Shown here piece after piece: positions 33,889-63,160 of a stretch of DNA of 64,000 bases. Made by a program: the position numbers and the translations under genes. Within the stretch, counting starts at the first letter, position 1; every line of letters starts with the position of its first letter. The notes beneath the pieces were generated by a model. The model was not told the DNA's origin and searched no databases. It saw only the letters and a list, made by a program, of their open reading frames with translations. The DNA comes from a virus (taxonomy: Duplodnaviria; Caudoviricetes). The DNA is taken from IMG/VR virus record IMGVR_UViG_3300027852_000032, positions 72,910-136,909 of that record; one strand, given 5' to 3'.

Positions 33889-34824
33889 CTATTCTAAAGA
33901 TTGATATGTTGCCAGAACAATCCCGGGCATACCTGAGTAAAATGAAGGCTCTTTAAAAAGATCGATAATTAATGCGGCTTGAGGATCCCCTCCGTTCAAC
34001 AAGACGGCGGACATATACCCTAAAATGGCTCTCCTGAACTTTTCAGGATCAGTTCCCTTCAGCTTTTTCAAAATTGAAGACGCTTTTTTCCAACTGGAAC
34101 CTTTGAGCATTGCTTGACAAAGTTCTCTCACATCTTTTTCTTCTACCTTTGCATTTTTAACCGCACCGAGCATCTCTTCTTCAGGAAGATCAATGACCTG
34201 ATCTAACGTCACTAATGCTTGCCGAGGGCAGCCATCAGAAACCTCAACAATTTCATCTTTTACATCATCAGGTATACCAACGTCCTCTTCTGTCGAAACC
34301 CAATTTAATAGCTGATAAAGCCCTTTATCGTTTACATTCTCAACCTCAAAAGTAGAGCACCTGTTAAGGATCGTCTTGAGCAATTTCTCTGGCTCAGTCG
34401 TGCAAAGAAGGAAGTATGTGTGTTCGGGGGAATCCTCTAACGCTTTAAGCAACGAATTTTGAAAATCTTTTGTTGCTTGATGAACTTCATCAAGGAGCCA
34501 AACTCTACACTCAGAAATCGCAGGATGATAATGCATTGTTTGCATTATTGATCTGGCGGTATCTATCCCTCTGTTGTTACTTGCGTTAATCTCGATAAAG
34601 TCCCCGTTTGGCTCATCATTAATCTTTTCGGGGCAGCCTAATTTTTCGGCAACTATCCTTGCTAACGTTGTTTTCCCGCACCCGCTCTGGCCTGAAAATA
34701 ACATAGCGTGAGGAATATTTTCTTTTTCCCGAGACAGAATAGATTTCAAACTTGAGATAACGCCTTTATTTCCAATGACCTCTTCAAAACTTTGGGGTCT
34801 GTAATCTATATGTAAACTTCCCAT
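33889..34824 (-). CDS. dnaX: Clamp loader, DNA polymerase III gamma/tau-like
   Basis: YRPQSFEEVIG, GQSGCGKTT, LLDEVH, NSLLKALE, TILNRC. Confidence 0.92.
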   Translation of the reverse strand: MGSLHIDYRPQSFEEVIGNKGVISSLKSILSREKENIPHAMLFSGQSGCGKTTLARIVAEKLGCPEKINDEPNGDFIEINASNNRGIDTARSIMQTMHYHPAISECRVWLLDEVHQATKDFQNSLLKALEDSPEHTYFLLCTTEPEKLLKTILNRCSTFEVENVNDKGLYQLLNWVSTEEDVGIPDDVKDEIVEVSDGCPRQALVTLDQVIDLPEEEMLGAVKNAKVEEKDVRELCQAMLKGSSWKKASSILKKLKGTDPEKFRRAILGYMSAVLLNGGDPQAALIIDLFKEPSFYSGMPGIVLATYQSLE

Positions 34825-34828
34825 ATTT

Positions 34829-37800
34829 TTATTTCCTTTTTTCCAATAAACTCACTTTATTTACGAAGTTTTCAATCCCTTTTTGAAAAGGAATTGAATT
34901 GTCTTTTTTACTTTTCAAAACAAAAGAGGGATCGACGCACCAACAACACCAAGCCCCGATGCTTTCCACCCATTCTGTTTCCCCACTCATCTCTAAAATT
35001 CCCTCTTTTCGCCCTGTTAAAGAGTAAAGAGCCGTATCTCCGCAAGCAAGAATAATTCTGGATTGTATTTTTCTCGATTCTTCGTGCAACCAACGATGAC
35101 ACGAATCAATTTCAAAATGAGTTGGTTTTTTTGTTTGGCTCGGCCAGCAACGGCAACAATGGGTAATATGAAAAAACCTTCGAGAATAACCATACTTTTT
35201 TAATTCTTTCCATAACAAATCTCCCGCCCGACCAACACCCCCTTTTTTCTCTTCGTCCTCAATTCTTCCCGGGAACCCTAACAGTATTATTGCATTATAT
35301 ACTCCCAAAGAAGATAAGATCGCTCTATTTTTTACATATTTTCTTAAATCACAATTATTGCAACGGAAAACCTTATCTTCAACCCTAAATCTTTTTCTTT
35401 TAATGAGGTTATCGGGAATTTCAGATGACTCAAGATTTAAACTTGCAAAATCAGGTAAATCCTTTAAAGAAATATTCTCCTCAAACAATTCTACTAACTG
35501 TGAATATTTTTCAATTTTACTTCCTTGCAAATCAATATGAGGGAAATATTTACTCAGAACAGATACAGGTAAAATCGCATCTATTTCATCAACACATAAA
35601 TCTAATAATATTTCATCAAATCGTGTGTTTGAAGTTTCTTTTACGACCTGACTTTTAAAAAAACCTTGGAGCCTATTTTTTCTAACAGGCTCTAAACACT
35701 TAGAGGCATTATTTTCCCCGATCCCATTAATTTCAATAAATGGGATATATAGGGTACCCCCTATAAACCTCCATTCTTTTGCATTTGAAAAATTCCTTTT
35801 AGGGGTAATAATCATATACCCCTGTTGTCTGACCTCAGATAACAAAGAATTTTTATGTTTGTTTGGATCAGTTGCCTTTTCATTCCATTCTCCATATGTA
35901 AGGCTTGCAGCAAAAAATTCTTTTTCGTAATGTGTTTTAAGATATGCCGTTTGATACGCAATTAAAGCGTATGCAGTCGCATGACTTTTATTAAACCCAT
36001 AACTTGACCATTTTAAAAGACCCTCCCAAAACTCCTCCGCCTCCTTTTGGGAGAAAGTTTTCATCTTCCTGCACCCCTGCGAAAATTGCTCCCAAAACGG
36101 TTTAAACTCTTTTGGGTCTCTTTTTTTGCCGATGACCTTTCGAATTTTATCGGCTATTGATTCGCTCAGCCCTGCTACTCTAGAAATAACTTGCATAACT
36201 TGTTCTTGGTACACCAGCAATCCATATGTTTCTTTTGTTACCTCCTCATAAATAGGATGTAAAGGTTTCCATTTTTGCCCATGCTTTCTTTTTACATATT
36301 CTTCTGTCATTCCACTATCGGTCGGTCCTGGCCGAGCTAAAGCAATTCCTGCGACAATATCCATAAATGAATGTATTTCCATTTTTTTGCAAAGTTCGGT
36401 GCAGGAACGCCCCGACAATTGGAACATGCCTGAAGTTTTTCCAGATGTAATTTTATCAAAGGTTTCTTTATCTTCTATCGGAATTTTATCAAAAGAGAAC
36501 TCAATTTGTTTGTAATCTTTATATTTTTCTTCGAACTCAACTTCCATAATTTTCAAAATCAAATAACGCCCTGTTACAGGATCTTGAAAAAGGCCAGTTG
36601 AACTACAATCATCGTTAATGAGTCGGCGGCATTCCGACAAAACGGAAAGGGTTGAAAGTCCAAGTATGTCTAATTTCATCAACCCCATGTACTCGCTATC
36701 TTCCATATCCCAATTACAAACAATTCTATCATTTCTTTTGACCAAAACACATTTTCCTGCGGTCGTTAAATCCTCTTTTGAAACAACAACGGCGGCAGCA
36801 TGGGCACCTGCACCTCTTATTTGCCCCTCCATTTTCAATATCAAGCGAACTACTTTCGGGTATTTTGCAGCGAAATATCTACCTTCCTCTGTATTATCGA
36901 TGGAAGATTGGATAGCGCTACCCTCAATATGTTCTCCCTTTCTTATTGAGTTCGCGAAAAAATTGGTATCTTTTTGGGAAACCTCCATCACCCTGCAAAC
37001 ATCTCTAATTGCCGCTCTGGACTGCATCCTCATAACTGTTGAAATACCACAGGTATTATTTTTTCCGTAAACCTCTTTTATTCGAAGAATGACCTCTTTT
37101 CTATACCTCTTCTCAAAGTCAATATCAATATCAGGCCAGTCCCCTCGATCTTCAGAAATAAACCGGCTAAAAGACAGGCCGAACACAATTGGGTCAACTT
37201 GAGTGATTCCGAGAAGATAAGCGATAAGTGACCCCCCTACACTGCCTCTGCCCGGTCCGACCATTATCCCTTTTTTTCTCGACCAGTCAATTAAATCGTG
37301 GACAATAAGGAAATATCTTTCAAACTTTTTCTCCGTAATTAATTTGAGCTCTTGGGAATATCTTTTTTGGTACTCAGCAGAAAAGACCTCTGTTCCAAAT
37401 ATTTTTAGATATCCTTGCGTACACAAATCACCTAACACTTTTTTTTCACTCTGCTTTTGAATTCCTGGAGGTTTTGGCAAAGATATTTCTTTTTCCGAAA
37501 GTTTAAATTTAGAACATTGTTCAGCAATCTTTATCGTGTTTTTCATTGCTTGAATCGCGGTATCTTTTGACCAATCTTTTTGATCTTCAAAAGCCTGTAA
37601 CATCTCACCCGCTGTCCTCAAATGAAGACCTTTAAACCCAAAAGACCATCTTGCGGGATCTTTCCATTTCGCCCTTCTATTGATCGCGAGTAACATATCT
37701 TGTGATTCCCATTCATCTTCTTTTGTATAATGACAATCATTCGTCGCGATGAAAGGAATATTTTTGTATTTTTTAGCCAATTTCTTTATTTTACTATGAA

Positions 37801-38323
37801 TGTCTTTTTGCGATGGAATATTATGTGGCATTATTTCAAAATAAACATCCGTTTTTTTATCCAATTCTTTTAACAGGTCTTCTGCCCCAGGCAAATTCAA
37901 GAATGATCCTGAACAAGCAGTAGAAATAATCAACCCCGACAAATCAGAATTCAAAAGCAGATTATAATCAATTCTGGGGGAATAATAAAAACCGGATAAA
38001 TTCGCTTCCGTCAAGAGAGAGCAAAGGGTTTTCCATCCGTCTTCGTTTGCAACAAACAAGCTGATGTGTCCTTTTTTTTCTTTTTGCTTAATATGTCTGT
38101 CAGGAACGATATAGGCTTCACACCCTAAAACATGATTAATATTTTGTTTTTCGCATTCTTTTTGCCATTGCAAAAGGCCATCAATATTCCCATGATTTGT
38201 TAACCCTATATATTGAAAACCAAGATCCTTTGCTTCCTTTATATATTTTTGCGAAGATCCGTACCCGTCAAGATGCGAATGCTCTGAGTGTAAATGCAAA
38301 TGTGCAAAATCTTTGTTATTCAC
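34829..38323 (-). CDS. dnaE: DNA polymerase III alpha subunit with C-terminal uracil-DNA glycosylase-like domain
   Basis: PHP HLHLHS..S.LDG and ATNDCHY; GPGRGS, PDIDIDF, HAAAVV, KLDILGL, YQEQVM, YGFNKSH; C-terminal CNNC...CCRCWP...SC...ILACG. Confidence 0.95.
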   Translation of the reverse strand: MNNKDFAHLHLHSEHSHLDGYGSSQKYIKEAKDLGFQYIGLTNHGNIDGLLQWQKECEKQNINHVLGCEAYIVPDRHIKQKEKKGHISLFVANEDGWKTLCSLLTEANLSGFYYSPRIDYNLLLNSDLSGLIISTACSGSFLNLPGAEDLLKELDKKTDVYFEIMPHNIPSQKDIHSKIKKLAKKYKNIPFIATNDCHYTKEDEWESQDMLLAINRRAKWKDPARWSFGFKGLHLRTAGEMLQAFEDQKDWSKDTAIQAMKNTIKIAEQCSKFKLSEKEISLPKPPGIQKQSEKKVLGDLCTQGYLKIFGTEVFSAEYQKRYSQELKLITEKKFERYFLIVHDLIDWSRKKGIMVGPGRGSVGGSLIAYLLGITQVDPIVFGLSFSRFISEDRGDWPDIDIDFEKRYRKEVILRIKEVYGKNNTCGISTVMRMQSRAAIRDVCRVMEVSQKDTNFFANSIRKGEHIEGSAIQSSIDNTEEGRYFAAKYPKVVRLILKMEGQIRGAGAHAAAVVVSKEDLTTAGKCVLVKRNDRIVCNWDMEDSEYMGLMKLDILGLSTLSVLSECRRLINDDCSSTGLFQDPVTGRYLILKIMEVEFEEKYKDYKQIEFSFDKIPIEDKETFDKITSGKTSGMFQLSGRSCTELCKKMEIHSFMDIVAGIALARPGPTDSGMTEEYVKRKHGQKWKPLHPIYEEVTKETYGLLVYQEQVMQVISRVAGLSESIADKIRKVIGKKRDPKEFKPFWEQFSQGCRKMKTFSQKEAEEFWEGLLKWSSYGFNKSHATAYALIAYQTAYLKTHYEKEFFAASLTYGEWNEKATDPNKHKNSLLSEVRQQGYMIITPKRNFSNAKEWRFIGGTLYIPFIEINGIGENNASKCLEPVRKNRLQGFFKSQVVKETSNTRFDEILLDLCVDEIDAILPVSVLSKYFPHIDLQGSKIEKYSQLVELFEENISLKDLPDFASLNLESSEIPDNLIKRKRFRVEDKVFRCNNCDLRKYVKNRAILSSLGVYNAIILLGFPGRIEDEEKKGGVGRAGDLLWKELKKYGYSRRFFHITHCCRCWPSQTKKPTHFEIDSCHRWLHEESRKIQSRIILACGDTALYSLTGRKEGILEMSGETEWVESIGAWCCWCVDPSFVLKSKKDNSIPFQKGIENFVNKVSLLEKRK

Positions 38324-38350: not shown

Positions 38351-39370
38351 TTAAGAAGACAAACAAAGGGCATGTTCAAAACCTTTCCCTGTAAAAAGCA
38401 AGCGATCCCCTATAACCATAGATGTAGATTTACCCAATACCTCAACCAAAAATCCAGGGTGGGCTCTCACATCGATACCTTTACCTTTGTAATTGACTTT
38501 GATCTCATCGGAAACAGAACCATGTTTCCCTTTCCCTGTACATACAATTTTCCCTTCCCCAATTTTTAAATCAACCACCCGATCCAAATCAAAATCAGCT
38601 ATTACCAAAGAAGAAACTCTGTCGACCATCTCTCCAAAAGAAGAGGGAAGCTTTATTTTTTTTCCTTTCACAACAAAAAAATCATCTATAGCGGAGGGGT
38701 AAGGTTTCCCAGAGTAAGTTCTGCAAGAAAAAAAGGTTTTATCTTTATTAGAAAAATGTAACCATCCATCTGCACTTATAGCGACTTTACAAATATCATA
38801 CCCTTTTAACTCTTTGGCGGAAATAGCAGGGAGTAAAAAAGAACCATCAAAAGAAGCTTTCATTTTCTGCTTTGTGGCTCTATAAGAATCGGAGGAAAAA
38901 ACATATTTCCCGGAAATATTTAAGCAAGATAATTCGGGTATATTCATATTTTTAGAAACGGAAAAAAGCCCTAATTCAATAGCGGTATTAAAATCAGAGG
39001 GAAGGTCTTTCCAGTCAGAAGACTTATCTGCCGGCCTTTTAATTTTTACAATTTTAATCTCTTTATCAATTTTTATGGAGGCTTTTAATGTCTCTCCCGT
39101 AATAACAAAAGCATCGTCCGTCTGGTTAATTCCAATTTCTTTATCAACCATTTTCTTTATCAAGTTATAAAACTCTGAAGCTTTCACAGCGCCCATGAGA
39201 CCTGTTTTGATTTCCTGAAAAATTGCGATGTCGTCGTTATAAGTTCTTATTGAGTTCTTTTCAAAAATAAAATGAGTAGACTGTTCAATAATTTCATCAT
39301 TACTTAATCCCGGTTTCACTTTATCTAAAACAGAAAGTAATTCGTCTCTCAATATGATCTTTTTTGGCAT
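38351..39370 (-). CDS. dnaN: Sliding clamp (DNA polymerase III beta-like)
   Basis: 339 aa; SSDSYR, YP motif, position next to dnaE and dnaX. Confidence 0.8.
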   Translation of the reverse strand: MPKKIILRDELLSVLDKVKPGLSNDEIIEQSTHFIFEKNSIRTYNDDIAIFQEIKTGLMGAVKASEFYNLIKKMVDKEIGINQTDDAFVITGETLKASIKIDKEIKIVKIKRPADKSSDWKDLPSDFNTAIELGLFSVSKNMNIPELSCLNISGKYVFSSDSYRATKQKMKASFDGSFLLPAISAKELKGYDICKVAISADGWLHFSNKDKTFFSCRTYSGKPYPSAIDDFFVVKGKKIKLPSSFGEMVDRVSSLVIADFDLDRVVDLKIGEGKIVCTGKGKHGSVSDEIKVNYKGKGIDVRAHPGFLVEVLGKSTSMVIGDRLLFTGKGFEHALCLSS

Positions 39371-39371
39371 T

Positions 39372-40394
39372 TTACTTTTCCTTTTTCAATAATTGTAAAT
39401 AATGATCCCATGCGTCTTTTTGTGTTCCTTTTTTCAAAACATAATAATACGAAAACAGAAAAAGAACTTTTTTTGGATTTGCTCTTAATATAGCTTTTTC
39501 AACAAAAGGAAGCGTGTGTCTACATACAGTCGCGAAAGCTATGTTATTTTTAACTTCCTTTTGAAGTTGAAGAAAATAAAAAATATTCCACGCCGCCCTT
39601 TCTTTATAGCTTTTTCTCATCTCCTCAAAATCAAATCCGTAATCAGTGATGATTTGTTCTATCATTTTTTTCCATTCAAAAGGGCGCGCATCGAACAACC
39701 TTTTGTTTTTGCCTTCCTCTTGAGGTATGTCGAAAAAAGATAAGGTTTTTCGAGAATCTTCGATCTTCTTTCGAGAAGAAATATTAATGACTAAAGGGGT
39801 CGATTTCCAAACAAACTTTTTACTTTTGATAGCTCCAGGAACATAAATACCCCCGTACGCCGTTGATTGCCTCCATGACCCGCTATCAACACTCTCCCAA
39901 GGGAAATTATTCATCAGCCTAAAAGACGTCGCTGCGTACCCATGGAACTTAACAAGGGGTTTTCCTTTAGAGTCACAAAGGATCTTCATACACCTCTTTA
40001 GCCATTCCGCTCTGACTGGGGTGATTTTATCATTTGCAGGAGAAATTCCTATAAACTTGGGTCCAAAATCCTTCAATTTTTGCAACCATTTGAAATCCTC
40101 TCCTTGATGGAAAATGTGCATCAGTTTATCTTTTGAAACTTTTTTTTTCAACATGTATTGATAGTTATCCCACCCTTTTTCAGCTGACCCCTCAATATCA
40201 TCTTTCGTCAAAACTTTCTGCCCAAATACTCCGGGGATAACGTCTAAATTAGCAATATGAGATAACTGCCCTTGGTGTTCTTTTGCAAAATCAATATAAG
40301 AGTCTATGTCAATTTCCACCCGCTTTGTCCAGGCTGTAAAAGCCCCCGAATCCAACATTAGTTCAACCTTACTTTTTGAAGGTGCTCGTGACAT
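39372..40394 (-). CDS. dpdA: DNA 7-deazaguanine transglycosylase (DpdA, TGT-like fold)
   Basis: LMLDSGAFT, ANLDVI, IFHQGE, KFHGYA, PWESVDSGSW; adjacent to que genes. Confidence 0.8.
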   Translation of the reverse strand: MSRAPSKSKVELMLDSGAFTAWTKRVEIDIDSYIDFAKEHQGQLSHIANLDVIPGVFGQKVLTKDDIEGSAEKGWDNYQYMLKKKVSKDKLMHIFHQGEDFKWLQKLKDFGPKFIGISPANDKITPVRAEWLKRCMKILCDSKGKPLVKFHGYAATSFRLMNNFPWESVDSGSWRQSTAYGGIYVPGAIKSKKFVWKSTPLVINISSRKKIEDSRKTLSFFDIPQEEGKNKRLFDARPFEWKKMIEQIITDYGFDFEEMRKSYKERAAWNIFYFLQLQKEVKNNIAFATVCRHTLPFVEKAILRANPKKVLFLFSYYYVLKKGTQKDAWDHYLQLLKKEK

Positions 40395-40773
40395 TTATTT
40401 TCACCCCTCCTCTCGCATTAAATTCACCCGTGACAGTTAATTCGATAGGGGAGCAAAGACGGACAAGATCATCCCTTATCAAGTTAACGATAGTCTCCAT
40501 AAAACCTTGATAATTTCTATAAGCGAAAAAGTACAATTTGAGGCTCTTTGACTCTATACAAAGTTTATCAGGTACATAATCAATTTTTATTGTCGCGAAA
40601 TCAGGTTGCCCGGTTTTAGGACAACAACTGGTAAACTCCGGGAAAATAAGATTGACTTCATACCCATAACCTGTATACCTGTTTTCAAACGCCTCAAGAA
40701 TCCCTTCCGGCTTTTCATATTCGTATTCAGTTCTTTCTGATCCTAAATGTTTTAGCTCTTGGCCTTCTTTCAT
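40369..40773 (-). CDS. queF: NADPH-dependent preQ0 reductase
   Basis: PEFTSCCPKTGQPDFA, QueF motif ESKSLKLY, FNARGG. Confidence 0.93.
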   Translation of the reverse strand: MKEGQELKHLGSERTEYEYEKPEGILEAFENRYTGYGYEVNLIFPEFTSCCPKTGQPDFATIKIDYVPDKLCIESKSLKLYFFAYRNYQGFMETIVNLIRDDLVRLCSPIELTVTGEFNARGGVKINVTSTFKK

Positions 40774-41681
40774 TTTTTCATCCTCGCTATGAATTCATCT
40801 TTACACCCATCTTTATTCTCTGAGAAATACCCTGTAGCCGATATGACTTCAAAAGGACTATTGAACTTTTTTACTCCCCTCATTTCTTTGCACAAATGCC
40901 TTGCACTCATGACTAATATCATTCCTTTTGAGTTGATCTTTTCGTCCAGGTGATTGACAATATCAAAAACAAGTCTTTCTGCTATTTGCAATCTTGCTGA
41001 AAAGTAATCAACTACCCTTGCAATTTTACTGGCTCCAATTAACAAGTCAGAGGGAATATACCCGAAGCTATACTCACCAAAAAAGGGTAACATATGGTGC
41101 TCACAATATGAAAAGAAATACCCCTCATCCCTCAACATCGTGTCGTACTTGACTCCATCTGAACCATCGTTCGCGAAAACAGTCACTTTTGGAAGACAAG
41201 CAGGGTTATATCCCTTAAAGGTTTCTTTCCACATTTTAGTGACCCTTTTCGGGGTATCTTTTAATCCCGGGCGATTAGGGTTTTCCCCAATTACCTGGAT
41301 CATTCTGGTCACAGCATCCTCGGCCGGATTTTCTTTTGATTCTTTTTCCCAAAAAAACTCAACCCATCCATGCGCCATCTGGGCAAAAATAAACGGGTGC
41401 AAAACCAACTCGTTTTTTTTATACAAACAAGCAAAATCATTATTGGGGTATCTTTCTCTTGTTTCTCCCGAATCAACTATATCGTCAACAACCAATGTAT
41501 TTTTTGTAACATCTTTAGCACTGACTAAAGGTTTTTTTAACAAAGCCGATAATGCTAAAGCGACATAGACGCCCCCCCGAGGAACACCATATATATTTGA
41601 GTATCTTAAATTTGCCGCTGAAATATTACTTGCCAAACAACCAACAAGATAATTGAATTTTTCCAGATTACAAACCTCCAT
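40770..41681 (-). CDS. folE: Fusion: type I phosphoribosyltransferase (N-terminal) plus GTP cyclohydrolase I (C-terminal)
   Basis: IYGVPRGG and PRPP-binding LVVDDIVDSGET; then GENPNRPGLKDTPKRV, SYCEHHMLPFFG, GASKIARVV, LQIAERL, HLCKEMRG. Confidence 0.9.
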   Translation of the reverse strand: MEVCNLEKFNYLVGCLASNISAANLRYSNIYGVPRGGVYVALALSALLKKPLVSAKDVTKNTLVVDDIVDSGETRERYPNNDFACLYKKNELVLHPFIFAQMAHGWVEFFWEKESKENPAEDAVTRMIQVIGENPNRPGLKDTPKRVTKMWKETFKGYNPACLPKVTVFANDGSDGVKYDTMLRDEGYFFSYCEHHMLPFFGEYSFGYIPSDLLIGASKIARVVDYFSARLQIAERLVFDIVNHLDEKINSKGMILVMSARHLCKEMRGVKKFNSPFEVISATGYFSENKDGCKDEFIARMKK

Positions 41682-42375
41682 TATTTTTTACCCCCTCAAA
41701 ATATAATCTTCGAACCAATGGGTCTTGTACCCCTGCTCTTGAAAAACCATCTTCCCTTAATTTGCAAGCAGGGCACTTGCCACATGGGGGAACTTGCCCT
41801 TCGTAACAAGTATGACTATAAGCCAAAGCATCCATGCACCCAGGCAAAGATTTTGCCATTTCAACCGCTTCTTTTTTATCTTTATTCATTAATGGGGTAT
41901 GAATACAAAAGCCATTTCTCGAAGAACCAAAACCTCTATTCAACGTCTGTTGCAAAGAGGTAATTGATTCTTGTCTGCAATCAGGGTACCCAGAAGAATC
42001 AGTCTGACAAACGCCCGTCACAATACTTGATATTTGATGCTTATAAGCAAGGGCTGCGGCAATTGTTAAGAAAATAATGTTTCTCCCGGGAACAAAAGAT
42101 GCAGGTAAATCTTTATCTATTACATGAGGATCCGAGACCTCCCCGCCATCAACCAAAGCCGAATTGCCAACTTTTCGGAATAGATCTGTCTCAAAAAACC
42201 GATAAGGGACATTCGCCAGTTTCGCAATTTTTCTGGCGGACTCTATTTCTATCGCATGCCTTTGGCTGTAATAAATATTAAGAGCAAGAACTTTCCCGAA
42301 TATTCTTTTCGCCCAGAACAAACACGTCGTTGAATCTTGTCCACCAGATAAAAGAACAATTGCTTTTATACTCAT
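41668..42375 (-). CDS. queC: 7-cyano-7-deazaguanine synthase
   Basis: LLSGGQDSTTCL, QRH..E, VPGRN, GYPDCR, TCY...CGKCPAC.LR. Confidence 0.96.
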   Translation of the reverse strand: MSIKAIVLLSGGQDSTTCLFWAKRIFGKVLALNIYYSQRHAIEIESARKIAKLANVPYRFFETDLFRKVGNSALVDGGEVSDPHVIDKDLPASFVPGRNIIFLTIAAALAYKHQISSIVTGVCQTDSSGYPDCRQESITSLQQTLNRGFGSSRNGFCIHTPLMNKDKKEAVEMAKSLPGCMDALAYSHTCYEGQVPPCGKCPACKLREDGFSRAGVQDPLVRRLYFEGVKNNGGL

Positions 42376-42383
42376 TTTAACTC

Positions 42384-42941
42384 CTATTTACTTTCGCGAG
42401 GTTTTACTAATCTTCCAACTTCCTCCAAACACCGAACCACCTTTTTTACATCAGACAATAATGTCAAGATAGTGCTATCGGTACAGGTCAAGCCGTCTTC
42501 ATCCAAATGCTTACGAATTTGATCTTTTGTAATTTTGTCGTTCGCGCAAATCAACTTACAAATTTTCGCTGTTACAGACACCTTTTTTTTGGGTTTGGAT
42601 TTAGCGGCTGGGGTATTATTAGGATCAGGATCAGGGTCGGTATCAGGATCAGGATCAGGGTCAGTATCAGGATCAGAATCAGGATCAGGGTCGGAATCAG
42701 GGTCGGGATCAGGGGCGGGATCGGTATCAGGGGCTGGGGGAATATCAGCTCCAAGGCCAATCAAAACAGACCTCGTCTCATCAGAAAGATAATCTCCTTC
42801 TTGAAGGGATTTGGCGGCTTCCAAAATATCTTTTCGAAGAGAAGCAACAGAAATTTTTCTCCCTGTTTTTATAGATTCTTCAAAAAAATCACTTATTTCT
42901 TTTGCAGCTTCTTCTAATTGTTTTTTTGTAGCTCTTCTCAT
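42384..42941 (-). CDS. Hypothetical two-domain protein with Pro-Asp repeat linker
   Basis: 185 aa; (PD/TD/SD)n linker; C-terminal helical, possibly wHTH, domain. Confidence 0.7.
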   Translation of the reverse strand: MRRATKKQLEEAAKEISDFFEESIKTGRKISVASLRKDILEAAKSLQEGDYLSDETRSVLIGLGADIPPAPDTDPAPDPDPDSDPDPDSDPDTDPDPDPDTDPDPDPNNTPAAKSKPKKKVSVTAKICKLICANDKITKDQIRKHLDEDGLTCTDSTILTLLSDVKKVVRCLEEVGRLVKPRESK

Positions 42942-42946
42942 TGTTT

Positions 42947-43146
42947 CCCTCTTATATATTTATTTATTTTTAAGCCCCCAGTAAAGGGGGCGACAATAAT
43001 TATATTCTATCTTATTCGTGTTTTATTATATTCTATCTTATTTGCGTTTTATTATATTTTGGCGATGTCTCAGTATCTCATTTTATCCCCCTCTTATATA
43101 TTTATTTATTTTTAAGCCCCCAGTAAAGGGGGCGACAATAATTATA
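42947..43146. repeat. 58-bp perfect direct repeat (42947-43004; 43089-43146) with GCCCCC-N6-GGGGGC hairpin and RBS
   Basis: Identical CCCTCTTATATATTTATTTATTTTTAAGCCCCCAGTAAAGGGGGCGACAATAATTATA in both copies. Confidence 0.95.
43000..43081 (-). pseudogene. Miniature, internally deleted remnant of the adjacent DUF262-like gene
   Basis: Begins ATGAGATACTGAGACAT (gene: ATGAGATACTCAGACAT) and ends GAATAAGATAGAATATAA (gene: GAACAAGACAGAGTATAA). Confidence 0.7.
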
Positions 43147-43669
43147 CTCTGTCTTGTTCGTCTTCCAAAAGGTTTCTTACCTGTTGAATCTCAAGAGCAG
43201 AATGAACTCTCCCACCTTCATTTAACTCAATGTACCATTTCAAAACATCAGCTTTTTCTGGAAGATTATCGATAAACCATTTGAACCGACAAGTCTTGGG
43301 CATTTTCCCTTTTATTTCACTGTAATAAGCAAGACAAAAAACAGGAAACTCATCTGCAAGAAAATCCCTAACCGCTGTTACTCTTTGAAGACCATCAATA
43401 ATTTGATACTGCACTTCTTGATCACCTATCCGCCCTGAACGATTACAAGAAACTCTATCAGCGTCAAGACCACCTTGAAGTTTATACTCTACATATGCGA
43501 TACTTTCTGCCTTTGTCCAAGTATTCTCTTTCAAAAAATCACGGCTGAGGTCACCTTCAATGGAAGAGTCTTCTATTATAGTAGAAATATGTTTTTCAAG
43601 ATCTTCCCATTTAACATCACAAGAATGACGGCTGCTATTTTCAAATTTGTTTATGTCTGAGTATCTCAT
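43142..43669 (-). CDS. DUF262 / ParB-Srx-like domain protein
   Basis: WT..E, YQIIDGLQRVTA..F, WY..LN.GG. Confidence 0.75.
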   Translation of the reverse strand: MRYSDINKFENSSRHSCDVKWEDLEKHISTIIEDSSIEGDLSRDFLKENTWTKAESIAYVEYKLQGGLDADRVSCNRSGRIGDQEVQYQIIDGLQRVTAVRDFLADEFPVFCLAYYSEIKGKMPKTCRFKWFIDNLPEKADVLKWYIELNEGGRVHSALEIQQVRNLLEDEQDRV

Positions 43670-43724
43670 TTTATTTTCCCCTTTTGTTTAATTAATTAAT
43701 AATACCAACGTTTATCTTATAAAC

Positions 43725-43844
43725 AATATAAACAATATAAAGAATATAGTCAACCTCAGTTATAGCCGGTTATAGCCGGTTATGGATAACTATATACGAT
43801 TAGAAAGATAGAACCGTTTATTTCTTTAATTAACTAAAAAGTTC
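43725..43844 (-). promoter_or_regulatory. Sigma70-type promoter P1 with upstream 10-bp repeats and TAAAAAGTTC box
   Basis: TTGACT-N17-TATATT; GTTATAGCCG repeats 43759-43788; box at 43835. Confidence 0.8.
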
Positions 43845-43930
43845 ATTTAATTTAGTTTTTCTTTCTTTTTAGTTAACATTTTTACTATATTTACTATACA
43901 AAATCCCTTCTCTTCTTTTAGATATTCATT

Positions 43931-44611
43931 TTATAAAAGCAAATTATTTTTAATTTCATCTACCTTGATCAACTTATGAATTTGAATATTTAAAACAATA
44001 TCCTTACACCCATATTTAATCATCTCTTCGGCCAGCCACAAAGCGTTATTCTTTCCGCCATTCATCATGGGGCTTAAAGCGTAATTCGCTCTACAGGCAT
44101 CTTTCTTCAAAATATCAATAAAATTAATAGAGCTAATAAAATCACAACGATCAATTATTACAAATTTAATCCAGTCTTTTTCTGTTAACCGCCTATGATT
44201 TTCTAAACACATATAATCAGGATTCGCTAATTTATAATCAAGAACCCACCCCAAATCGCTTGATTCAATTTCTGGAAAGGGAAGGCTCCCATTTGTTTCT
44301 ACCGAAACAACATTTTTTTTATAAAGCAAAGCCTCAATTAACTCGGCCGTCTCTCTTTGCAATAAAGGCTCCCCTCCTGTAATCGTAACTTTTCCTTTAG
44401 GGATGAGGTCAACAATTTGGGAAACAGACATCTCTTTTTTATTGGTCAATTTTCTTGCCTGGGGCGTATCGCAATAAGTACAATTTAAATTACACCCTTG
44501 AAAACGAATAAAAGTTGTAAGAGCCCCTTGCCCCTTAAAGTTCACCTCTCCGTCAATACCCGTGAATATTTCATTTATATATAACATTATTTTGAAAGCC
44601 CCTTCACCCAT
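43931..44611 (-). CDS. queE: 7-carboxy-7-deazaguanine synthase (radical SAM)
   Basis: EIF..IDGE, FIRFQGCNLNCTYCDT, ITGGEPLLQ, VETNGS, IKFVI, QIHK. Confidence 0.93.
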   Translation of the reverse strand: MGEGAFKIMLYINEIFTGIDGEVNFKGQGALTTFIRFQGCNLNCTYCDTPQARKLTNKKEMSVSQIVDLIPKGKVTITGGEPLLQRETAELIEALLYKKNVVSVETNGSLPFPEIESSDLGWVLDYKLANPDYMCLENHRRLTEKDWIKFVIIDRCDFISSINFIDILKKDACRANYALSPMMNGGKNNALWLAEEMIKYGCKDIVLNIQIHKLIKVDEIKNNLLL

Positions 44612-45009
44612 GTTGCATAATTAAAAGATGTTTCCCAAACTCTTACTTTGACTACAAAAACATCATGAGGCAAAAGTTTTTGGATAGCTTCTGAAAAACA
44701 AAGGGATAATACTTCAGCCGTTGGATTATGAAAAAAAACATTTAGGCAGGAATGATCATATGTATCTATAATACTTCTCTTCACGATTTCTTTTAAATTG
44801 TTAAAATCTATTATCATTCCCGCTTCTGGCCCTGTAGTTTTTATTTCTCCAGTCACAGTCACCTCAAGTTTAAAATTATGGCCATGGTCATTTTTACATT
44901 TTCCTTCATGAGATGGGAGATAATGAGACGCTGCGAATTCAAAAATCTTAGTAACATTTACCATTTTTTTTACTTCCTTTTTAGTCTGAGTTTTCTTAAG
45001 TTTTTTCAA
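44587..45009 (-). CDS. queD: 6-carboxy-5,6,7,8-tetrahydropterin synthase
   Basis: FAASHYL, C.N.HGHN, GMIIDF, DHSCLN, NPTAE, VWET. Confidence 0.93.
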   Translation of the reverse strand: MKKLKKTQTKKEVKKMVNVTKIFEFAASHYLPSHEGKCKNDHGHNFKLEVTVTGEIKTTGPEAGMIIDFNNLKEIVKRSIIDTYDHSCLNVFFHNPTAEVLSLCFSEAIQKLLPHDVFVVKVRVWETSFNYATWVKGLSK

Positions 45010-53357: not shown

Positions 53358-53978
53358 GTGACAAACATAGTCAGTTTCAGCGGAGGAAAAGATTCGACAG
53401 CCATGCTTTTAATGATGCTTGAGAAAAAAGAAAAAATTCACTCTGCTGTTCATTTTGAAACAGAAAGAGAGTTTCCTGAAATACTTTCTCATATAGAAAA
53501 AATAACAAAGGAAGTAGACGTAAAAATCCAAAAGGTGAGATATTGGATAGATTTCGACTTTCTTGAAGACAGGTATGGAAGACCGCATCCGTCAGGTGGA
53601 TGGTGCGCTGCGAGAAAGGCGAATGAGTGCAACAAGTATATGAGGTTAATGGTAAAAGATAATCCTAAGGCCGTCGAGTGCATAGGATTCGCATCAGATG
53701 AAAGAAATAGAGCTGAAAAATTATTGCTCTCGAAAAGTAAAAAATGGCCTCTTCGATTTCCATTAATCGAATGGGAAATAACCGAAAAAATGGCTTTGGA
53801 ATATTGCTACGACAAAGGTTATCTTTTCGATAACATTTATGATTGGATGCCGTCCAAACGGGTCAGCTGTTATGATTGCGTCAAACAGTCTGAAGCAGAT
53901 TGGAACGCCATAAAGAAGTATCACCCTGAATTGTTAAAAGGTAAAAAATACATAGATTTCAAAAGGAAAAATAAATAA
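53358..53978 (+). CDS. PAPS-reductase-family (PP-loop) protein
   Basis: VSFSGGKDS, WC..K, IGF..DE..R, FPLIEW, RVSCYDC. Confidence 0.85.
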   Translation: MTNIVSFSGGKDSTAMLLMMLEKKEKIHSAVHFETEREFPEILSHIEKITKEVDVKIQKVRYWIDFDFLEDRYGRPHPSGGWCAARKANECNKYMRLMVKDNPKAVECIGFASDERNRAEKLLLSKSKKWPLRFPLIEWEITEKMALEYCYDKGYLFDNIYDWMPSKRVSCYDCVKQSEADWNAIKKYHPELLKGKKYIDFKRKNK

Positions 53979-57337: not shown

Positions 57338-58830
57338 ACCCGCCTCCTTTCAAAAACTTCTACCTCCTCTCCCGCTATATTTCCAGAAGCATCGTACAAA
57401 TTGAATCGGGCAATCTCCGTTGTATTGTCCTCTCTATAAAAAATCATTTCAGTTCCGTCTCTCGCCCATCTGCCCCCTTCAATGTTTTTGATAAAGTTTA
57501 GGGCATACCCCATCGTTCCCTCTGTAGCGCAACATTCAGATGACTCTTCCCAAACTAAATGGGCAGTTGTATCGTTAATCAATGTTACACCTGAAGGGAT
57601 GTCTCCAACCAACTTCGCCTCTCCACCTAAATGAACAGTCCCTGCTGTGTTCGATGGACCCACCGTAACATTTCCCGCGCCGTGCTTAATGAAAATAGCA
57701 TCGGCTGAGGTCATGTTCATAACCTCCACTGATAGATTTGAATCTGCCATCCCTGCTTTTGCGGAACCCTGCATATCGAAAACTACGTTATCGCTTGTTA
57801 ACCCATAACACGCGAAAAACCTTGCCCATTCTGTTTGACTAAACGAAATGTTTCCCTGCAATCCGCACTCTGAAAATACCCCAGCCAGATTTTCCATACC
57901 GTCAATAATACACCTATCAGCGCGGATAGGCTCGGCACAATCCCCTATCAATATCATATTCGAAAAGTCCGAGTTAACAACATGTTGCCCATTCAAGTCC
58001 AAGGTTAAAAGCAAAATGTTATCAGAAACAGCAGTTCCCTCGGAAAAAGATTCCTCGACTATAAAAGTCCCCCTGCCGTTGAATTTTGTGATCCCTTCCC
58101 TCCTCGCGATAGCGAGGGCATCTGGCAAATTATTCGATGGTGTTCCGGCTGTTCCAATTGGGTAGTCGGTCCCGGCCACGCCTGTATGATCATTCACAAA
58201 AATAACATCCCAGAGGATAGACGAAACATCAGAGATAGTGGCACTGGAAGAACTTGATTTTACGACCTGCACATTAGGGGATTGCATGACTGGAGATAGC
58301 TCAGAACCAGTGTCATCTACCGCAACCAAGTTTCCCCCCAAAATATTACACTGCACATTGGGATAGGTCATATAGCGGTCGCCGTCTACCCAATCATCAC
58401 GAGTACCTCCGGACAAAGGAAACATTCTTAACTCCGTTTCTGACACCACTTCTGATACACCTGCCATGGAAACAGAATCCAGATTAAAAACAGTACACCC
58501 CCTGTAAATTTCGTCTGTAAGAAAGCTTCCGGCAGAGGCAACAAGAGTATCACCTTTTACGTTATCAGCAGTACAGAGGCCGACGTCCCCTATTGGTACA
58601 GTTCTGCCGGAAAACATCAACCTGGCGTTCTGCAGGGTAGCTGTAATTCCTACAGTCACACCGCCGCCCAAGTTTTCCTTCCCTGCTGCTGAGATCAATC
58701 TTTCATATGATAAATTATCGTCCTCCCAATCGCGAAGGGTATCAACTATTTCCTGAACACTAATATCTGTGGTCGGAGATAATATTTCAATTATTCTTGG
58801 TGACAGATGTGTGTGAACTTTGATTTGCAT
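57334..58830 (-). CDS. Putative virion structural protein
   Basis: 498 aa, acidic, Gly/Ser/Thr-rich, beta-helix-like middle; late operon. Confidence 0.55.
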   Translation of the reverse strand: MQIKVHTHLSPRIIEILSPTTDISVQEIVDTLRDWEDDNLSYERLISAAGKENLGGGVTVGITATLQNARLMFSGRTVPIGDVGLCTADNVKGDTLVASAGSFLTDEIYRGCTVFNLDSVSMAGVSEVVSETELRMFPLSGGTRDDWVDGDRYMTYPNVQCNILGGNLVAVDDTGSELSPVMQSPNVQVVKSSSSSATISDVSSILWDVIFVNDHTGVAGTDYPIGTAGTPSNNLPDALAIARREGITKFNGRGTFIVEESFSEGTAVSDNILLLTLDLNGQHVVNSDFSNMILIGDCAEPIRADRCIIDGMENLAGVFSECGLQGNISFSQTEWARFFACYGLTSDNVVFDMQGSAKAGMADSNLSVEVMNMTSADAIFIKHGAGNVTVGPSNTAGTVHLGGEAKLVGDIPSGVTLINDTTAHLVWEESSECCATEGTMGYALNFIKNIEGGRWARDGTEMIFYREDNTTEIARFNLYDASGNIAGEEVEVFERRRV

Positions 58831-58972
58831 CTCTTTGCTTATCCTCCAAGTTCCTTACAATTCTCTGGTATTCACGTTTGGTTTCAAGTTCCCCATCGAT
58901 AGCTTTCTCGAACACCTTAATATTATCGTCACATTTCTTAACTACATTTCTCATTGCTTCAAGATCGTACAT
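58787..58972 (-). CDS. Small coiled-coil hypothetical protein
   Basis: 61 aa with AAGGA RBS. Confidence 0.55.
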   Translation of the reverse strand: MYDLEAMRNVVKKCDDNIKVFEKAIDGELETKREYQRIVRNLEDKQRDANQSSHTSVTKNN

Positions 58973-58987
58973 ACTTTTTTATCCTTT

Positions 58988-59021
58988 AGGGTGCAGGGGT
59001 TATACCAGCCCCCGCACCTTT
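58988..59021 (-). terminator. Stem-loop after the 834-aa gene
   Basis: GGTGCAGGGG ... CCCCGCACC. Confidence 0.5.
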
Positions 59022-59024
59022 AGT

Positions 59025-61529: not shown

Positions 61530-61544
61530 GCCGATTCCCTCCTT

Positions 61545-62459
61545 TTAAAGATTCAAATCTTCCGTTAAATTAACAATAATGTTCAATCCATTCGCTGTGA
61601 TCTTTCCGTAAACGGTAACAGGAATATATCTTAAACCCCCTCCTATAACGCTGGATTTTCTTACTCTTATCTCTACATCCAGGTCAGATGTGTGGAGAAA
61701 GACCTCTGTTGCCTTGCCGGACGCCACTTGCTCATTCATATATACTGTATGGGTAACGGCATCTCTTATCTGTACACCTGCAAGATTAACATTGCAGTTG
61801 ACAGTTAAGTGGCAATATGTACCATTCACATCTTTCACCCTTCCGGTGCAATTGCCGCCATTCAAAACTGTAAAATCATTGGTTTTACAGTCGATATACT
61901 GGTTATCTGCTGTGAGCTTACAGTTATTAAGCTCAAGATCATATTCGCAAACAAAGTTTATCCCATCCGTCGTTGAGATAACTTCAAGCACACCCGCCTG
62001 TGGGTTATCAACAGCTTCGACCTGCATATAGTCGTATAATTCGTCAAGCGTATGATTCGAGGTCATTGTTATTTCGCCTGTTGTATGGTTTACGCTTATT
62101 CCCGCATACGCTATGACCGTAGCCTTGGTTGCTTCAGTAATATAGGCATTTTCAGTTAAATAAAAAATACTTATCAACGCTTCCGTAACATCCTGACTTA
62201 TAGTAAACGGTTCTAATCCGTATTTTAAGCATCGGATATCATGCGGATTTCTGGCCGTTGTGGTTGTTGTTGATGTCGTAACCGAATGAGAATTGGCCTC
62301 TACCTTTTGCTGATCTATAACCCCCTGAGCGTCCGTAGTTTGGTTTACTACTGAGGTATCGCTCACATTCAAAGCGTATATTTTTACTCCTGCTTCAACG
62401 CTCCCTCCCTCGTAGGTGGTCACATCCCATGTATATTTTTCTAATACAGTCGCAGCCAT
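61545..62459 (-). CDS. Putative virion protein
   Basis: 304 aa, Thr-rich, TLDELYD motif shared with the next gene's TMNELYS. Confidence 0.55.
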   Translation of the reverse strand: MAATVLEKYTWDVTTYEGGSVEAGVKIYALNVSDTSVVNQTTDAQGVIDQQKVEANSHSVTTSTTTTTARNPHDIRCLKYGLEPFTISQDVTEALISIFYLTENAYITEATKATVIAYAGISVNHTTGEITMTSNHTLDELYDYMQVEAVDNPQAGVLEVISTTDGINFVCEYDLELNNCKLTADNQYIDCKTNDFTVLNGGNCTGRVKDVNGTYCHLTVNCNVNLAGVQIRDAVTHTVYMNEQVASGKATEVFLHTSDLDVEIRVRKSSVIGGGLRYIPVTVYGKITANGLNIIVNLTEDLNL

Positions 62460-63158
62460 TTAAACCTCTATCAGATTAGATTTACATTCATCGCAAAGTA
62501 TCCGATCGAACTTCATTACTTTAGACTGAGCAAAATTTGGAATATCCCATTGTTTCTGCATGTCTGTTACTGTTGTTTCTTTCCGTAAATGGCGGATGTC
62601 TCTTGCTGAATAAGTTTCAGATACACACGAAAACGACCACCTGATCGCCCCGATTAATCCCTCAAGCAAAGCGAAGGCTTCCGTGCCTTCTGTAGTCAGA
62701 TGCCATTCATTTGCAGTAATTTGACCGATGCAATACCGTGTGTAGATCATCGCTTTCTTCTGGTCATCTACAAAGGCATCAATCAGAGTCCCAAATCCTT
62801 CCTTATAATCCATTGTTTTCCACCAGTTATAAGTGCGGATTGGCGCCAATTCACACTTATCGCACAAGGGCTCTTTCAAGATAATAATTCTGCTTTGAAC
62901 AGGAATGATCTCAGCTTTCTTTGCAGCATCCCCCCATCCGTTTTTGGCCACTAATTCTCCTAAATCACGGGTAAAGTTTCGTCCAACTTTTAGGGTATAC
63001 CGTAAATTAGACCCCAAGTTGTTCCAGTCTTGTCTCCAGCTCAAGTCGCTATACTTATCGAGAAAAGCCCTGTTTGCAACGCCTTTTCCTTTTACAGAAC
63101 TCATGAAGGGGACAATATTTTTATAATACGCCACCACTACTTCTCTTAAATTTTCCAT
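62460..63158 (-). CDS. Hypothetical protein with two CxxC motifs
   Basis: LCDKC and LCDEC. Confidence 0.7.
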   Translation of the reverse strand: MENLREVVVAYYKNIVPFMSSVKGKGVANRAFLDKYSDLSWRQDWNNLGSNLRYTLKVGRNFTRDLGELVAKNGWGDAAKKAEIIPVQSRIIILKEPLCDKCELAPIRTYNWWKTMDYKEGFGTLIDAFVDDQKKAMIYTRYCIGQITANEWHLTTEGTEAFALLEGLIGAIRWSFSCVSETYSARDIRHLRKETTVTDMQKQWDIPNFAQSKVMKFDRILCDECKSNLIEV

Positions 63159-63160
63159 AT

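What the first reader, a model, noticed from the sequence alone, without database searches (positions are those of the whole stretch)
34829..35370. DnaE ends in a family-4 UDG-like domain with a rewired active site
Seen: after the polymerase core, where an OB fold and tau-binding domain would normally lie, is CNNCDLR...ILLGFPG..ED...GGVGRAG.LL...ITHCCRCWP...PT..EI.SC..WL..E...ILACG..A...CVDPS. Established: family-4 UDGs have GEAPG, FVG, TN..KC and HPS/A plus four Fe-S cysteines. Here the cysteines are kept, but the uracil-pocket residues read LGFPG, GVG, TH and DPS. Inference: it is not a normal uracil glycosylase, and may be a reader of modified guanine, an abasic-site shield for DpdA intermediates, or a structural Fe-S module.
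Basis: partly seen in the sequence, partly recalled or inferred. Interest (0 to 1): 0.7.

Follow-up and report, generated by a model that had tools for sequence, protein, structure and literature searches.

The report
Phage DnaE polymerase, dead UDG tail
An uncultured phage's main DNA-copying enzyme ends in a well-folded iron-sulfur uracil-glycosylase domain that has lost every residue needed to recognise and cut out uracil. This is a one-lineage offshoot of a polymerase-glycosylase fusion that is common in phages and already noted in print, and it is not tied to the phage's 7-deazaguanine genes.

Summary
The last ~180 residues of the 1164-aa DnaE ORF (34829-38323, minus strand) form a family-4 UDG fold: Pfam 1.4e-11, TM0511 6e-12, AF2 pLDDT 95.7, TM 0.83-0.84. 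All four Fe-S cysteines are kept. The pocket reads LGFPG / GVG / TH / DPSFVLK instead of GEAPG / FVG / TN / HPS..R.

The dpdA-linked interpretation is not supported. Among the 150 nearest relatives, of which 106 carry detectable DnaE sequence in the same protein, 125 keep all four canonical residues. This copy is the only one with all four changed. Twelve relatives share the same que-dpdA-clamp-dnaE-clamp loader layout, two of them with queF, and all keep canonical sites. The nearest relative (58% identity) keeps E, N and H. No closer relative exists in any collection searched, so conservation of the new residues cannot be tested.

Best reading: a glycosylase-dead domain kept for a non-catalytic replisome or DNA-binding role. 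At least one catalytic residue was lost about 10 separate times in this family, nearly always with the cysteines kept.

DnaE with UDG replacing the OB and CTD domains was reported by Timinskas et al. 2014. PolA-UDG fusions, active and inactive, are known. This scan has met the DnaE-UDG fusion on other DNA many times. Interest is modest.

The parts
34829..38323 (-). dnaE-type (C-family) DNA polymerase ORF, 1164 aa, GTG start
   Evidence: Pfam PHP, DNA_pol3_alpha and finger domains; phrog_405 DNA polymerase at 1e-267
37826..38302 (-). PHP domain (residues 8-166), begins HLHLHSEHSHLDG
   Evidence: Pfam PF02811 at 4.9e-29
36659..37438 (-). Pol III alpha catalytic core (residues 296-555)
   Evidence: Pfam PF07733 at 3e-77
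36065..36526 (-). fingers domain (residues 600-753)
   Evidence: Pfam PF17657 at 1.2e-43
35678..36055 (-). region after the fingers (residues 757-882), at the position of the beta-binding/(HhH)2 domain; not detected by Pfam
   Evidence: phrog_405 match runs to residue 908; AF2 model is helical plus a small sheet, pLDDT 70-94
35369..35677 (-). linker (residues 883-985): disordered stretch 883-895, short helices 901-960, QLVELF at 942-947 (35483-35500), basic KRKRFR at 975-980; no OB fold
   Evidence: pLDDT below 50 at model residues 127-139; only 19% mean identity to relatives
34832..35368 (-). family-4 UDG-fold domain (residues 986-1164)
35351..35362 (-). C988-x2-C991, first two Fe-S cluster ligands
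   Evidence: aligned with the CxxC of TM0511 and TthUDGA; present in 140 of 140 relatives
35147..35149 (-). C1059, third cluster ligand
   Evidence: 149 of 150
35099..35101 (-). C1075, fourth cluster ligand
   Evidence: 150 of 150
35267..35281 (-). motif A, LGFPG instead of GEAPG; the catalytic Glu is Gly1016 and the Ala is Phe1017
   Evidence: family has E in 142 of 147; G here is unique
35231..35239 (-). GVG instead of FVG; the base-stacking Phe is lost (Gly1029)
   Evidence: family has F in 112 of 147; nearest relatives have Ala
35159..35161 (-). His1055 in place of the uracil-binding Asn
   Evidence: family has N in 138 of 150 and H in 4
34913..34933 (-). motif B, DPSFVLK instead of HP(S/A)xxxR; His to Asp1131 and Arg to Lys1137
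   Evidence: family has H in 138 of 149; D is unique to this copy
33889..34824 (-). clamp-loader (DnaX-like) gene, 4 nt downstream of dnaE
   Evidence: phrog_5846 at 4e-64
38351..39370 (-). sliding-clamp gene upstream of dnaE
   Evidence: phrog_947 at 3e-18
39372..40394 (-). DpdA/TGT-like gene
   Evidence: phrog_887 at 1.4e-42; no Pfam or NCBIfam hit
40369..45009 (-). queF, folE, queC, two unknown genes, queE, queD (preQ1 pathway)
   Evidence: Pfam hits

Best explanation
The 3' end of this phage's dnaE gene encodes a genuine family-4-type UDG fold with its [4Fe-4S] cysteines. It sits where cellular Pol III alpha has the OB and tau-binding domains. The fusion is standard in a large clade of uncultured-phage DnaE polymerases, and most of them keep intact UDG motifs. 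By analogy with PolA-UDG fusions, those probably survey the template for uracil during replication. In this one lineage the base pocket lost every uracil-recognition and catalytic residue: E to G, F to G, N to H, H to D, R to K. The fold, the cluster ligands and the DNA-backbone loops (G1031-x-A-G1034, P1132-S1133) were kept. It is therefore most likely a glycosylase-dead pseudo-enzyme retained for the domain's non-catalytic job. That job would be holding template or duplex DNA, or acting as a structural part of the replisome, as an OB-domain substitute or processivity aid. The fold, the residue losses, their uniqueness and the lack of a dpdA link are shown here. Loss of activity and the retained DNA-binding or structural role are inferred.
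For: Fold and homology. Of 150 nearest representatives, 125 keep all of E, F, N and H, and this protein alone has all four changed; the four cysteines are essentially invariant. 106 of the 150 carry DnaE sequence in the same polypeptide, and the domain ends a median of 6 residues from the C-terminus. Compared with its sister L002, the extra divergence is confined to the UDG domain: 39.9% against 44.8% identity to 45 outgroups, while other domains are about equal. It is also concentrated at highly conserved positions, with 6 unique departures against 0 (P1001A, V1002I, E1016G, N1055H, N1096D, H1131D). The domain as a whole is as conserved between the two as the polymerase core, 59% against 60-71%. 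Loss of at least one of E, N or H happened about 10 times on the family tree (15 of 144 rows), and all but one of those rows (P0124 lacks C1059) keep the cysteines. This argues that the domain has a use beyond catalysis. The ORF is intact and identical in three assemblies. The roles of the lost residues are documented for family-4 UDG and UdgX (PMC10359453). Precedents exist: N4-like PolA with an inactive UDG domain, active SPO1- and SP15-like fusions (PMC13697223), and a proposed processivity role for UDG domains and vaccinia D4-A20 (PMC3201878).
Against: No biochemistry exists. Other UDG families work without a motif-A acid (family 5) or a motif-B His (family 2), so absence of the canonical residues does not prove absence of all glycosylase activity (from my own knowledge). 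With no relative between 58% and 100% identity, purifying selection on the new residues or on the domain cannot be measured. The family tree is a FastTree with weak support, so 'about 10 losses' is approximate. I had no model coordinates and could not inspect the pocket geometry.
Confidence: 0.6

Rival explanations
1. Neofunctionalised pocket: the new residues (Phe1017, Gly1029, His1055, Asp1131) form a site that reads, shields or excises something other than uracil. Candidates are preQ1-type 7-deazaguanine in the phage's own DNA, or the abasic or covalent intermediates of DpdA.
For: The changes are concentrated in the pocket rather than spread over the domain. Phe-to-Gly enlarges the pocket. 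An Asp and a His are still present in it. The gene sits two genes from dpdA and the preQ1 pathway. Asn-to-His recurs in three other relatives.
Against: Twelve relatives with the same que-dpdA-clamp-dnaE layout, including L078 and L079 with queF, keep canonical GE(A/S/G)PG, F, N and HP(A/S). The substitutions occur in one phage only. The only other degenerate relative with a usable flank (P0098) has no que or dpdA genes in 10 kb upstream.
Confidence: 0.1
2. Neutral decay: the domain has no function in this lineage and is drifting toward loss.
For: The new residues are unique and unconserved. The UDG domain is the only part of the protein that is clearly faster-evolving than in the sister L002.
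Against: There is no stop codon, frameshift or truncation. The four Fe-S cysteines and most core positions are kept. AF2 is very confident. Domain identity to L002 (59%) is like that of the polymerase core. Relatives with degenerate sites also keep the fold and, in all but one (P0124), the cysteines.
Confidence: 0.15
3. Still a working uracil (or deaminated-base) glycosylase that uses non-canonical residues.
For: UDG families 2, 5 and 6 lack one or another canonical residue yet are active (from my own knowledge). The DNA-backbone loops are retained.
Against: Here the water-activating Glu, the stacking Phe, the Asn and the His that bind uracil, and the intercalation-loop Arg are all changed at once. 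Single losses of E52 already cut F4/UdgX-type activity strongly (PMC10359453).
Confidence: 0.07

Closest known systems
DnaE variant ('DnaEX') with OB and CTD replaced by a PF03167 UDG domain, in Yersinia pestis pMT1 and Salmonella pHCM2 (Timinskas et al., NAR 2014, PMC3919608)
   Same: A C-family polymerase whose OB and tau-binding C-terminus is replaced by a UDG-superfamily domain, on a phage-type replicon.
   Different: The pHCM2 tail is far more degenerate. It has no Pfam UDG hit at E<=0.01 and no BLASTP similarity to this domain. The window's domain is a clear Fe-S family-4 fold from a separate, large clade of uncultured phages. The paper gives the architecture in one sentence and no function.
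Family-4 UDGs (Thermotoga TM0511 1L9G/1VK2, Thermus UDGA 1UI0, Sulfolobus 4ZBX) and UdgX
   Same: Fold (TM 0.83-0.84), the four Fe-S cysteines and the GxAG and PS backbone loops.
   Different: Motif A Glu, the stacking Phe, the Asn and the motif B His and Arg are all replaced. It scores below the TIGR00758 cut-off (68.7 against 125.3). It is fused to a polymerase.
N4-like A-family phage polymerases with an inactive N-terminal UDG domain (Czernecki et al., as cited in PMC13697223)
   Same: A replicative phage polymerase carrying a UDG-fold domain that has lost its catalytic residues.
   Different: Different polymerase family (A, not C), opposite terminus, independent fusion.
SPO1-like and SP15-like (YerA41, phiLo) PolA-UDG fusions (Missoury et al. 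2026, PMC13697223)
   Same: A UDG domain in cis with the replicase. The phiLo domain is type IV and appears in the Foldseek list (9qhs). This is the likely model for what the canonical members of the DnaE-UDG clade do.
   Different: Those domains are active and N-terminal, and the phages have T-modified genomes. This copy lacks the catalytic residues.
Vaccinia D4 UDG with A20 as polymerase processivity factor (cited in PMC4889955 and PMC3201878)
   Same: A UDG fold serving the replisome in a structural or DNA-binding way.
   Different: D4 is a separate family-1-like protein and remains an active UDG. It is a eukaryotic virus protein with no Fe-S cluster.

Membership tests
UDG superfamily (Pfam PF03167) | Profile match above the gathering score | tested here: met
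   45.1 bits against 24.3, E 1.4e-11
Family-4 UDG | alpha/beta UDG fold superposable on solved family-4 enzymes | tested here: met
   AF2 pLDDT 95.7; Foldseek TM 0.83-0.84, rmsd 2.2-2.5 A to 1l9g and 1ui0
Family-4 UDG | Four cysteines that bind the [4Fe-4S] cluster | tested here: met
   C988, C991, C1059 and C1075 align with the ligands of TM0511 and TthUDGA; invariant in relatives. Cluster binding itself is not testable here.
Family-4 UDG | Motif A GE(A/G)PG with the water-activating Glu | tested here: not met
   LGFPG; Gly1016 at the Glu position
Family-4 UDG | Uracil-recognising Asn (N91 of UdgX) and stacking Phe of FVG | tested here: not met
   His1055 and Gly1029
Family-4 UDG | Motif B HP(S/A)xxxR | tested here: not met
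   DPSFVLK
Family-4 UDG | Curated NCBIfam TIGR00758 cut-off | tested here: not met
   68.7 bits against 125.3. Canonical-motif relatives L002 and L078 also fall below it at about 80 bits.
Family-4 UDG | Uracil excision activity | not testable with these tools
   Needs an enzyme assay
C-family (DnaE-type) DNA polymerase | PHP + Pol3 core + fingers | tested here: met
   Pfam PF02811, PF07733, PF17657
C-family (DnaE-type) DNA polymerase | C-terminal OB fold and tau-binding CTD of DnaE1 | tested here: not met
   No Pfam hit. The AF2 model of residues 757-1164 shows helices only, then the UDG fold.
Phage DnaE::family-4-UDG fusion clade (uncultured phages) | UDG-fold domain at the extreme C-terminus of a DnaE, closest to other members | tested here: met
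   E 1e-50 to 1e-19 to 149 representatives; 106 with DnaE in the same chain; 80 IMG/VR loci
Phage DnaE::family-4-UDG fusion clade (uncultured phages) | Canonical UDG catalytic residues, the majority state | tested here: not met
   It is the only one of 150 with all four changed

The most novel reading that the evidence does not exclude
In this one phage lineage the emptied uracil pocket was rebuilt (Phe1017, Gly1029, His1055, Asp1131) into a site that recognises a non-uracil ligand while the Fe-S fold rides on the replicase. The ligand would be a 7-deazaguanine (preQ1-type) base in the phage's own DNA, or the abasic or covalent intermediate of DpdA base exchange. That would couple replication to G modification.
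Probability: 0.07. Interest if true: 0.75.

Novelty: new member of a known kind. Interest (0 to 1): 0.3.

Why it matters
The finding adds a clean natural example to a growing pattern. Phage replicases of different families (A and C) have independently captured UDG folds, and in several lineages they switched off the chemistry while keeping the fold. This suggests the domain does something for the replisome besides removing uracil. The window's protein has a sister (L002) that retains E, N and H and many fully canonical cousins. Together they make a ready comparison set for asking what that second job is. It does not open a new link between DNA glycosylases and 7-deazaguanine modification.

Tried and rejected
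- **Co-variation with dpdA:** rejected. One caveat applies. The IMG/VR scan pattern demanded HP[AS], so it could not recover His-less copies. The unbiased HMMER search covers that gap.
- **Closer relatives that share the rewired residues:** none found. I tried the word-index search in the near-length band for the fusion and for the domain alone, IMG/VR with the single protein, and JGI metagenomes (best 44%). The 90% cluster holds only the same protein.
- **Cultured or GenBank phages with the fusion:** none. No DnaE hit in INPHARED reaches past residue 959. The two UDG-domain hits I followed up are not DnaE: H44 lies at the start of a gene annotated only 'DNA polymerase' with no DnaE similarity, and H42 has no DnaE similarity.
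- **Prokaryote genomes:** two MAG contigs only.
- **A uracil-containing genome as the reason for inactivation:** no support. The record has ThyX, no ThyA, no dUTPase and no second UDG. However, ThyX lies in the other half of a record that may join two phages, so this test is weak.
- **pMT1/pHCM2 'DnaEX' as a close relative:** rejected. There is no detectable similarity of the tails.
- **Literature on a C-family polymerase plus UDG:** word searches found nothing. A note from this scan then led me to PMC3919608, which I read and confirmed.
- **Pocket geometry:** could not be measured, because model coordinates are not exposed.

Full report
**What is there.** The window is the right-hand 64 kb of a 136,909-bp IMG/VR virus record. 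The ORF at 34829-38323 on the minus strand encodes a 1164-aa C-family polymerase. Pfam finds four domains:

| Domain | Residues | E-value |
|---|---|---|
| PHP | 8-166 | 4.9e-29 |
| Pol III alpha core | 296-555 | 3e-77 |
| fingers | 600-753 | 1.2e-43 |
| UDG superfamily (PF03167) | 1018-1141 | 1.4e-11 |

The last 213 residues hit solved family-4 UDGs directly: Thermotoga TM0511 at 6e-12 and Thermus UDGA at 4e-10. NCBIfam's best model is TIGR00758 (family-4 UDG) at 4.8e-19, although at 68.7 bits it is under the curated cut-off of 125.3. An AlphaFold2 model of residues 972-1164, built on a 71-sequence alignment, has mean pLDDT 95.7 and pTM 0.92. Foldseek superposes it on 1l9g and 1ui0 at TM 0.83-0.84 and rmsd 2.2-2.5 A.

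A second model of residues 757-1164 shows three parts:
- a confident post-fingers region;
- a disordered stretch at 883-895 and a few short helices at 901-960;
- then the UDG fold.

There is no OB barrel and no Pfam OB or HHH_6 hit.

**The active site.** In the HMMER alignments to TM0511 and TthUDGA and in my alignment of relatives, C988, C991, C1059 and C1075 occupy the Fe-S ligand positions. The pocket residues differ as follows:

| Element | Canonical | This copy |
|---|---|---|
| Motif A | GE(A/G)PG | LGFPG (Glu to Gly1016, Ala to Phe1017) |
| Stacking Phe | FVG | GVG (Gly1029) |
| Uracil-binding Asn | TN | TH (His1055) |
| Motif B | HP(S/A)xxxR | DPSFVLK (Asp1131, Lys1137) |

The UdgX/family-4 literature assigns these residues the following roles (PMC10359453):
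- E52 activates the nucleophile.
- N91 and H178 hydrogen-bond uracil and stabilise the uracilate.
- R184 helps recruit the substrate.

The loops that contact the DNA backbone (G1031-x-A1033-G1034, P1132-S1133) are kept.

**How common the fusion is.** A full HMMER search of 1.84 billion representatives with the 213-aa tail gave 5994 hits, 402 below 1e-10 and 75 below 1e-30. Of the best 150:
- 106 carry DnaE sequence in the same polypeptide, 68 of them from the N-terminus.
- The rest are short proteins of 115-443 aa with no detectable DnaE; many may be contig-end fragments, as several short IMG/VR loci are.
- The domain always ends within a few residues of the C-terminus, median 6.

IMG/VR yielded 110 matching stretches, of which 80 loci were kept. 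The 185,579-species genome set yielded only two MAG contigs. No GenBank phage record carries the fusion. It is thus a large clade of uncultured phages.

**Is the rewiring conserved?** It is not. In the 150 relatives the consensus is canonical:

| Position | Canonical residue | Count in relatives |
|---|---|---|
| Motif A | Glu | 142 of 147 |
| Stacking position | Phe | 112 of 147 |
| Uracil-binding position | Asn | 138 of 150 |
| Motif B | His | 138 of 149 |

The four cysteines are essentially invariant. 125 of the 150 keep all four pocket residues, and this protein is the only one with all four changed. Its nearest relative, L002, is 62% identical in the core and 58% in the domain. L002 reads LEAPG / AVG / N / HPS, so the losses of Glu, Asn and His post-date that split.

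Searches for anything closer found only the same protein, identical in JGI, ENA and Logan assemblies, with one synonymous difference in one of them. Conservation of the new residues therefore cannot be tested.

**Is it linked to dpdA?** The gene does sit in a replisome and preQ1 block. The order is queD, queE, two unknown genes, queC, folE, queF, a dpdA-like gene, sliding clamp, dnaE::UDG and clamp loader. Twelve IMG/VR relatives show the same layout with dpdA and que genes upstream. L078 and L079 also have queF. All twelve keep GE(A/S/G)PG, Phe, Asn and HP(A/S).

L002 has no dpdA within 10 kb. The degenerate relative P0098 has none in 10 kb upstream. For P0150 the flank is too short to tell. 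The scan pattern required HP[AS], which biases that set towards His. The unbiased set nevertheless tells the same story. The DpdA-linked readings therefore lack comparative support.

**Decay or retained domain?** Against 45 outgroups, the window protein and L002 are about equally distant in the PHP, palm, fingers and post-fingers regions. In the UDG domain the window copy is more distant: 39.9% against 44.8% identity, and L002 is closer in 44 of 45 comparisons.

At positions conserved in at least 85% of relatives, the window copy has six private departures: P1001A, V1002I, E1016G, N1055H, N1096D and H1131D. L002 has none. The change is therefore focused on the pocket and its loops. Overall domain identity to L002 (59%) matches the polymerase core (60-71%).

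On a FastTree of 144 domains with the trait columns masked, loss of at least one of Glu, Asn or His maps to about 10 changes across 15 rows. All of those rows keep the four cysteines except P0124, which lacks C1059. Recurrent loss of chemistry with retention of the fold and cluster is what one expects if the domain also serves a non-catalytic purpose.

**Comparison with what is known.**
- *Timinskas et al. [quoted passage not shown] PF03167'. I reached this paper through earlier notes of this scan and verified the sentence myself.
- *That pMT1/pHCM2 tail.* It is much more degenerate than the present one. It has no Pfam UDG hit and no BLASTP similarity, so the clades are distinct, but the architecture is published.
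- *A-family polymerases.* N-terminal UDG fusions are well described. SPO1-like and SP15-like domains are active, with cryo-EM showing the domain handling the template strand. N4-like domains have lost the catalytic residues (PMC13697223).
- *A processivity role.* Kazlauskas and Venclovas proposed one for such domains by analogy with vaccinia D4-A20 (PMC3201878).
- *This scan.* It has already met the DnaE-UDG fusion in at least 17 other genomes, including other disabled copies. Those notes are unchecked by me except as stated.

**Verdict.** 'Not a normal UDG' is very probably right. The favoured mechanism is a glycosylase-dead Fe-S UDG fold kept as a DNA-binding or structural module of a phage DnaE replicase (confidence about 0.6). 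The rivals are neutral decay (0.15), a repurposed pocket (0.10) and residual non-canonical glycosylase activity (0.07). This is a new, unusually complete case of inactivation within a known kind of fusion, and interest is modest.

**Caveat on the record.** Genome positions 67580-74031 are 90% identical to 130459-136909, and positions 1-533 are 89% identical to 74381-74915. The repeat carries tail-fibre-like genes. The 137-kb record may therefore be two related phages joined at a shared module. Whole-record statements (one UDG, ThyX present, no dUTPase) should be read with that in mind.

Noticed in passing
window 57550-64000 (genome 130459-136909) against genome 67580-74031; genome 1-533 against 74381-74915: A ~6.5-7.3 kb block of tail-fibre-like genes (834, 304, 232 and 275 aa; beta-helix) occurs twice at ~90% identity, and the record's two ends nearly meet inside one copy. 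The 137-kb record has two structural modules. It may be two related phages joined at the shared block, or one genome with a diverged repeat. By my reckoning coordinates, the 56-kb ENA contig of the same phage ends close to these repeat boundaries.
   Followed up: partly
L087:2176-3387 (context of relative P0015): A DnaE::UDG phage carries an adenylosuccinate-synthetase-family gene (Pfam Adenylsucc_synt) about 7 kb upstream of dnaE. This may be a PurZ-like enzyme of 2-aminoadenine (Z-base) genomes.
   Followed up: no
L049, L052, L057, L058, L060 (UDG domains of relatives): Five relatives have GQDPG as motif A, i.e. the family-1 style Gln-Asp, on the Fe-S family-4 scaffold.
   Followed up: no
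L085:10001-13729 and L086:920-5038: The DnaE::UDG genes of relatives P0098 and P0150 contain Pfam Intein_splicing domains. An SNF2 helicase next to P0098 is also intein-rich.
   Followed up: no
window 35483-35500 (-), residues 942-947: QLVELF in the linker resembles the beta-clamp-binding consensus QL(S/D)LF. Relatives have a loosely conserved YP(N/K)L...F motif at the same place, but L002 lacks a good match.
   Followed up: partly
window 39372-40394 (-): The DpdA-like gene is recognised only by PHROG 887 (1.4e-42). It has no Pfam or NCBIfam hit, so it is a divergent DpdA subgroup.
   Followed up: no
family alignment, positions 997, 1057, 1127, 1129: Besides the four cluster ligands, the DnaE-fused clade has further frequently conserved cysteines: C997 in 107 of 140, C1129 in 109 of 149, C1127 in 65 and C1057 in 54. 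The window copy lacks C997 but has C1056, C1057, C1126, C1127 and C1129. A second metal site or a disulfide is possible.
   Followed up: no
window 53358-53978 (+): A PAPS-reductase / PP-loop (DndC-like) gene stands alone on the plus strand between the early and lysis regions.
   Followed up: no
window 43142-43669 (-) and 42384-42941 (-): Two unassigned genes are wedged inside the que cluster. One has a weak GmrSD_N/DUF262-like hit and the other has an acidic Pro/Glu-rich repeat.
   Followed up: no
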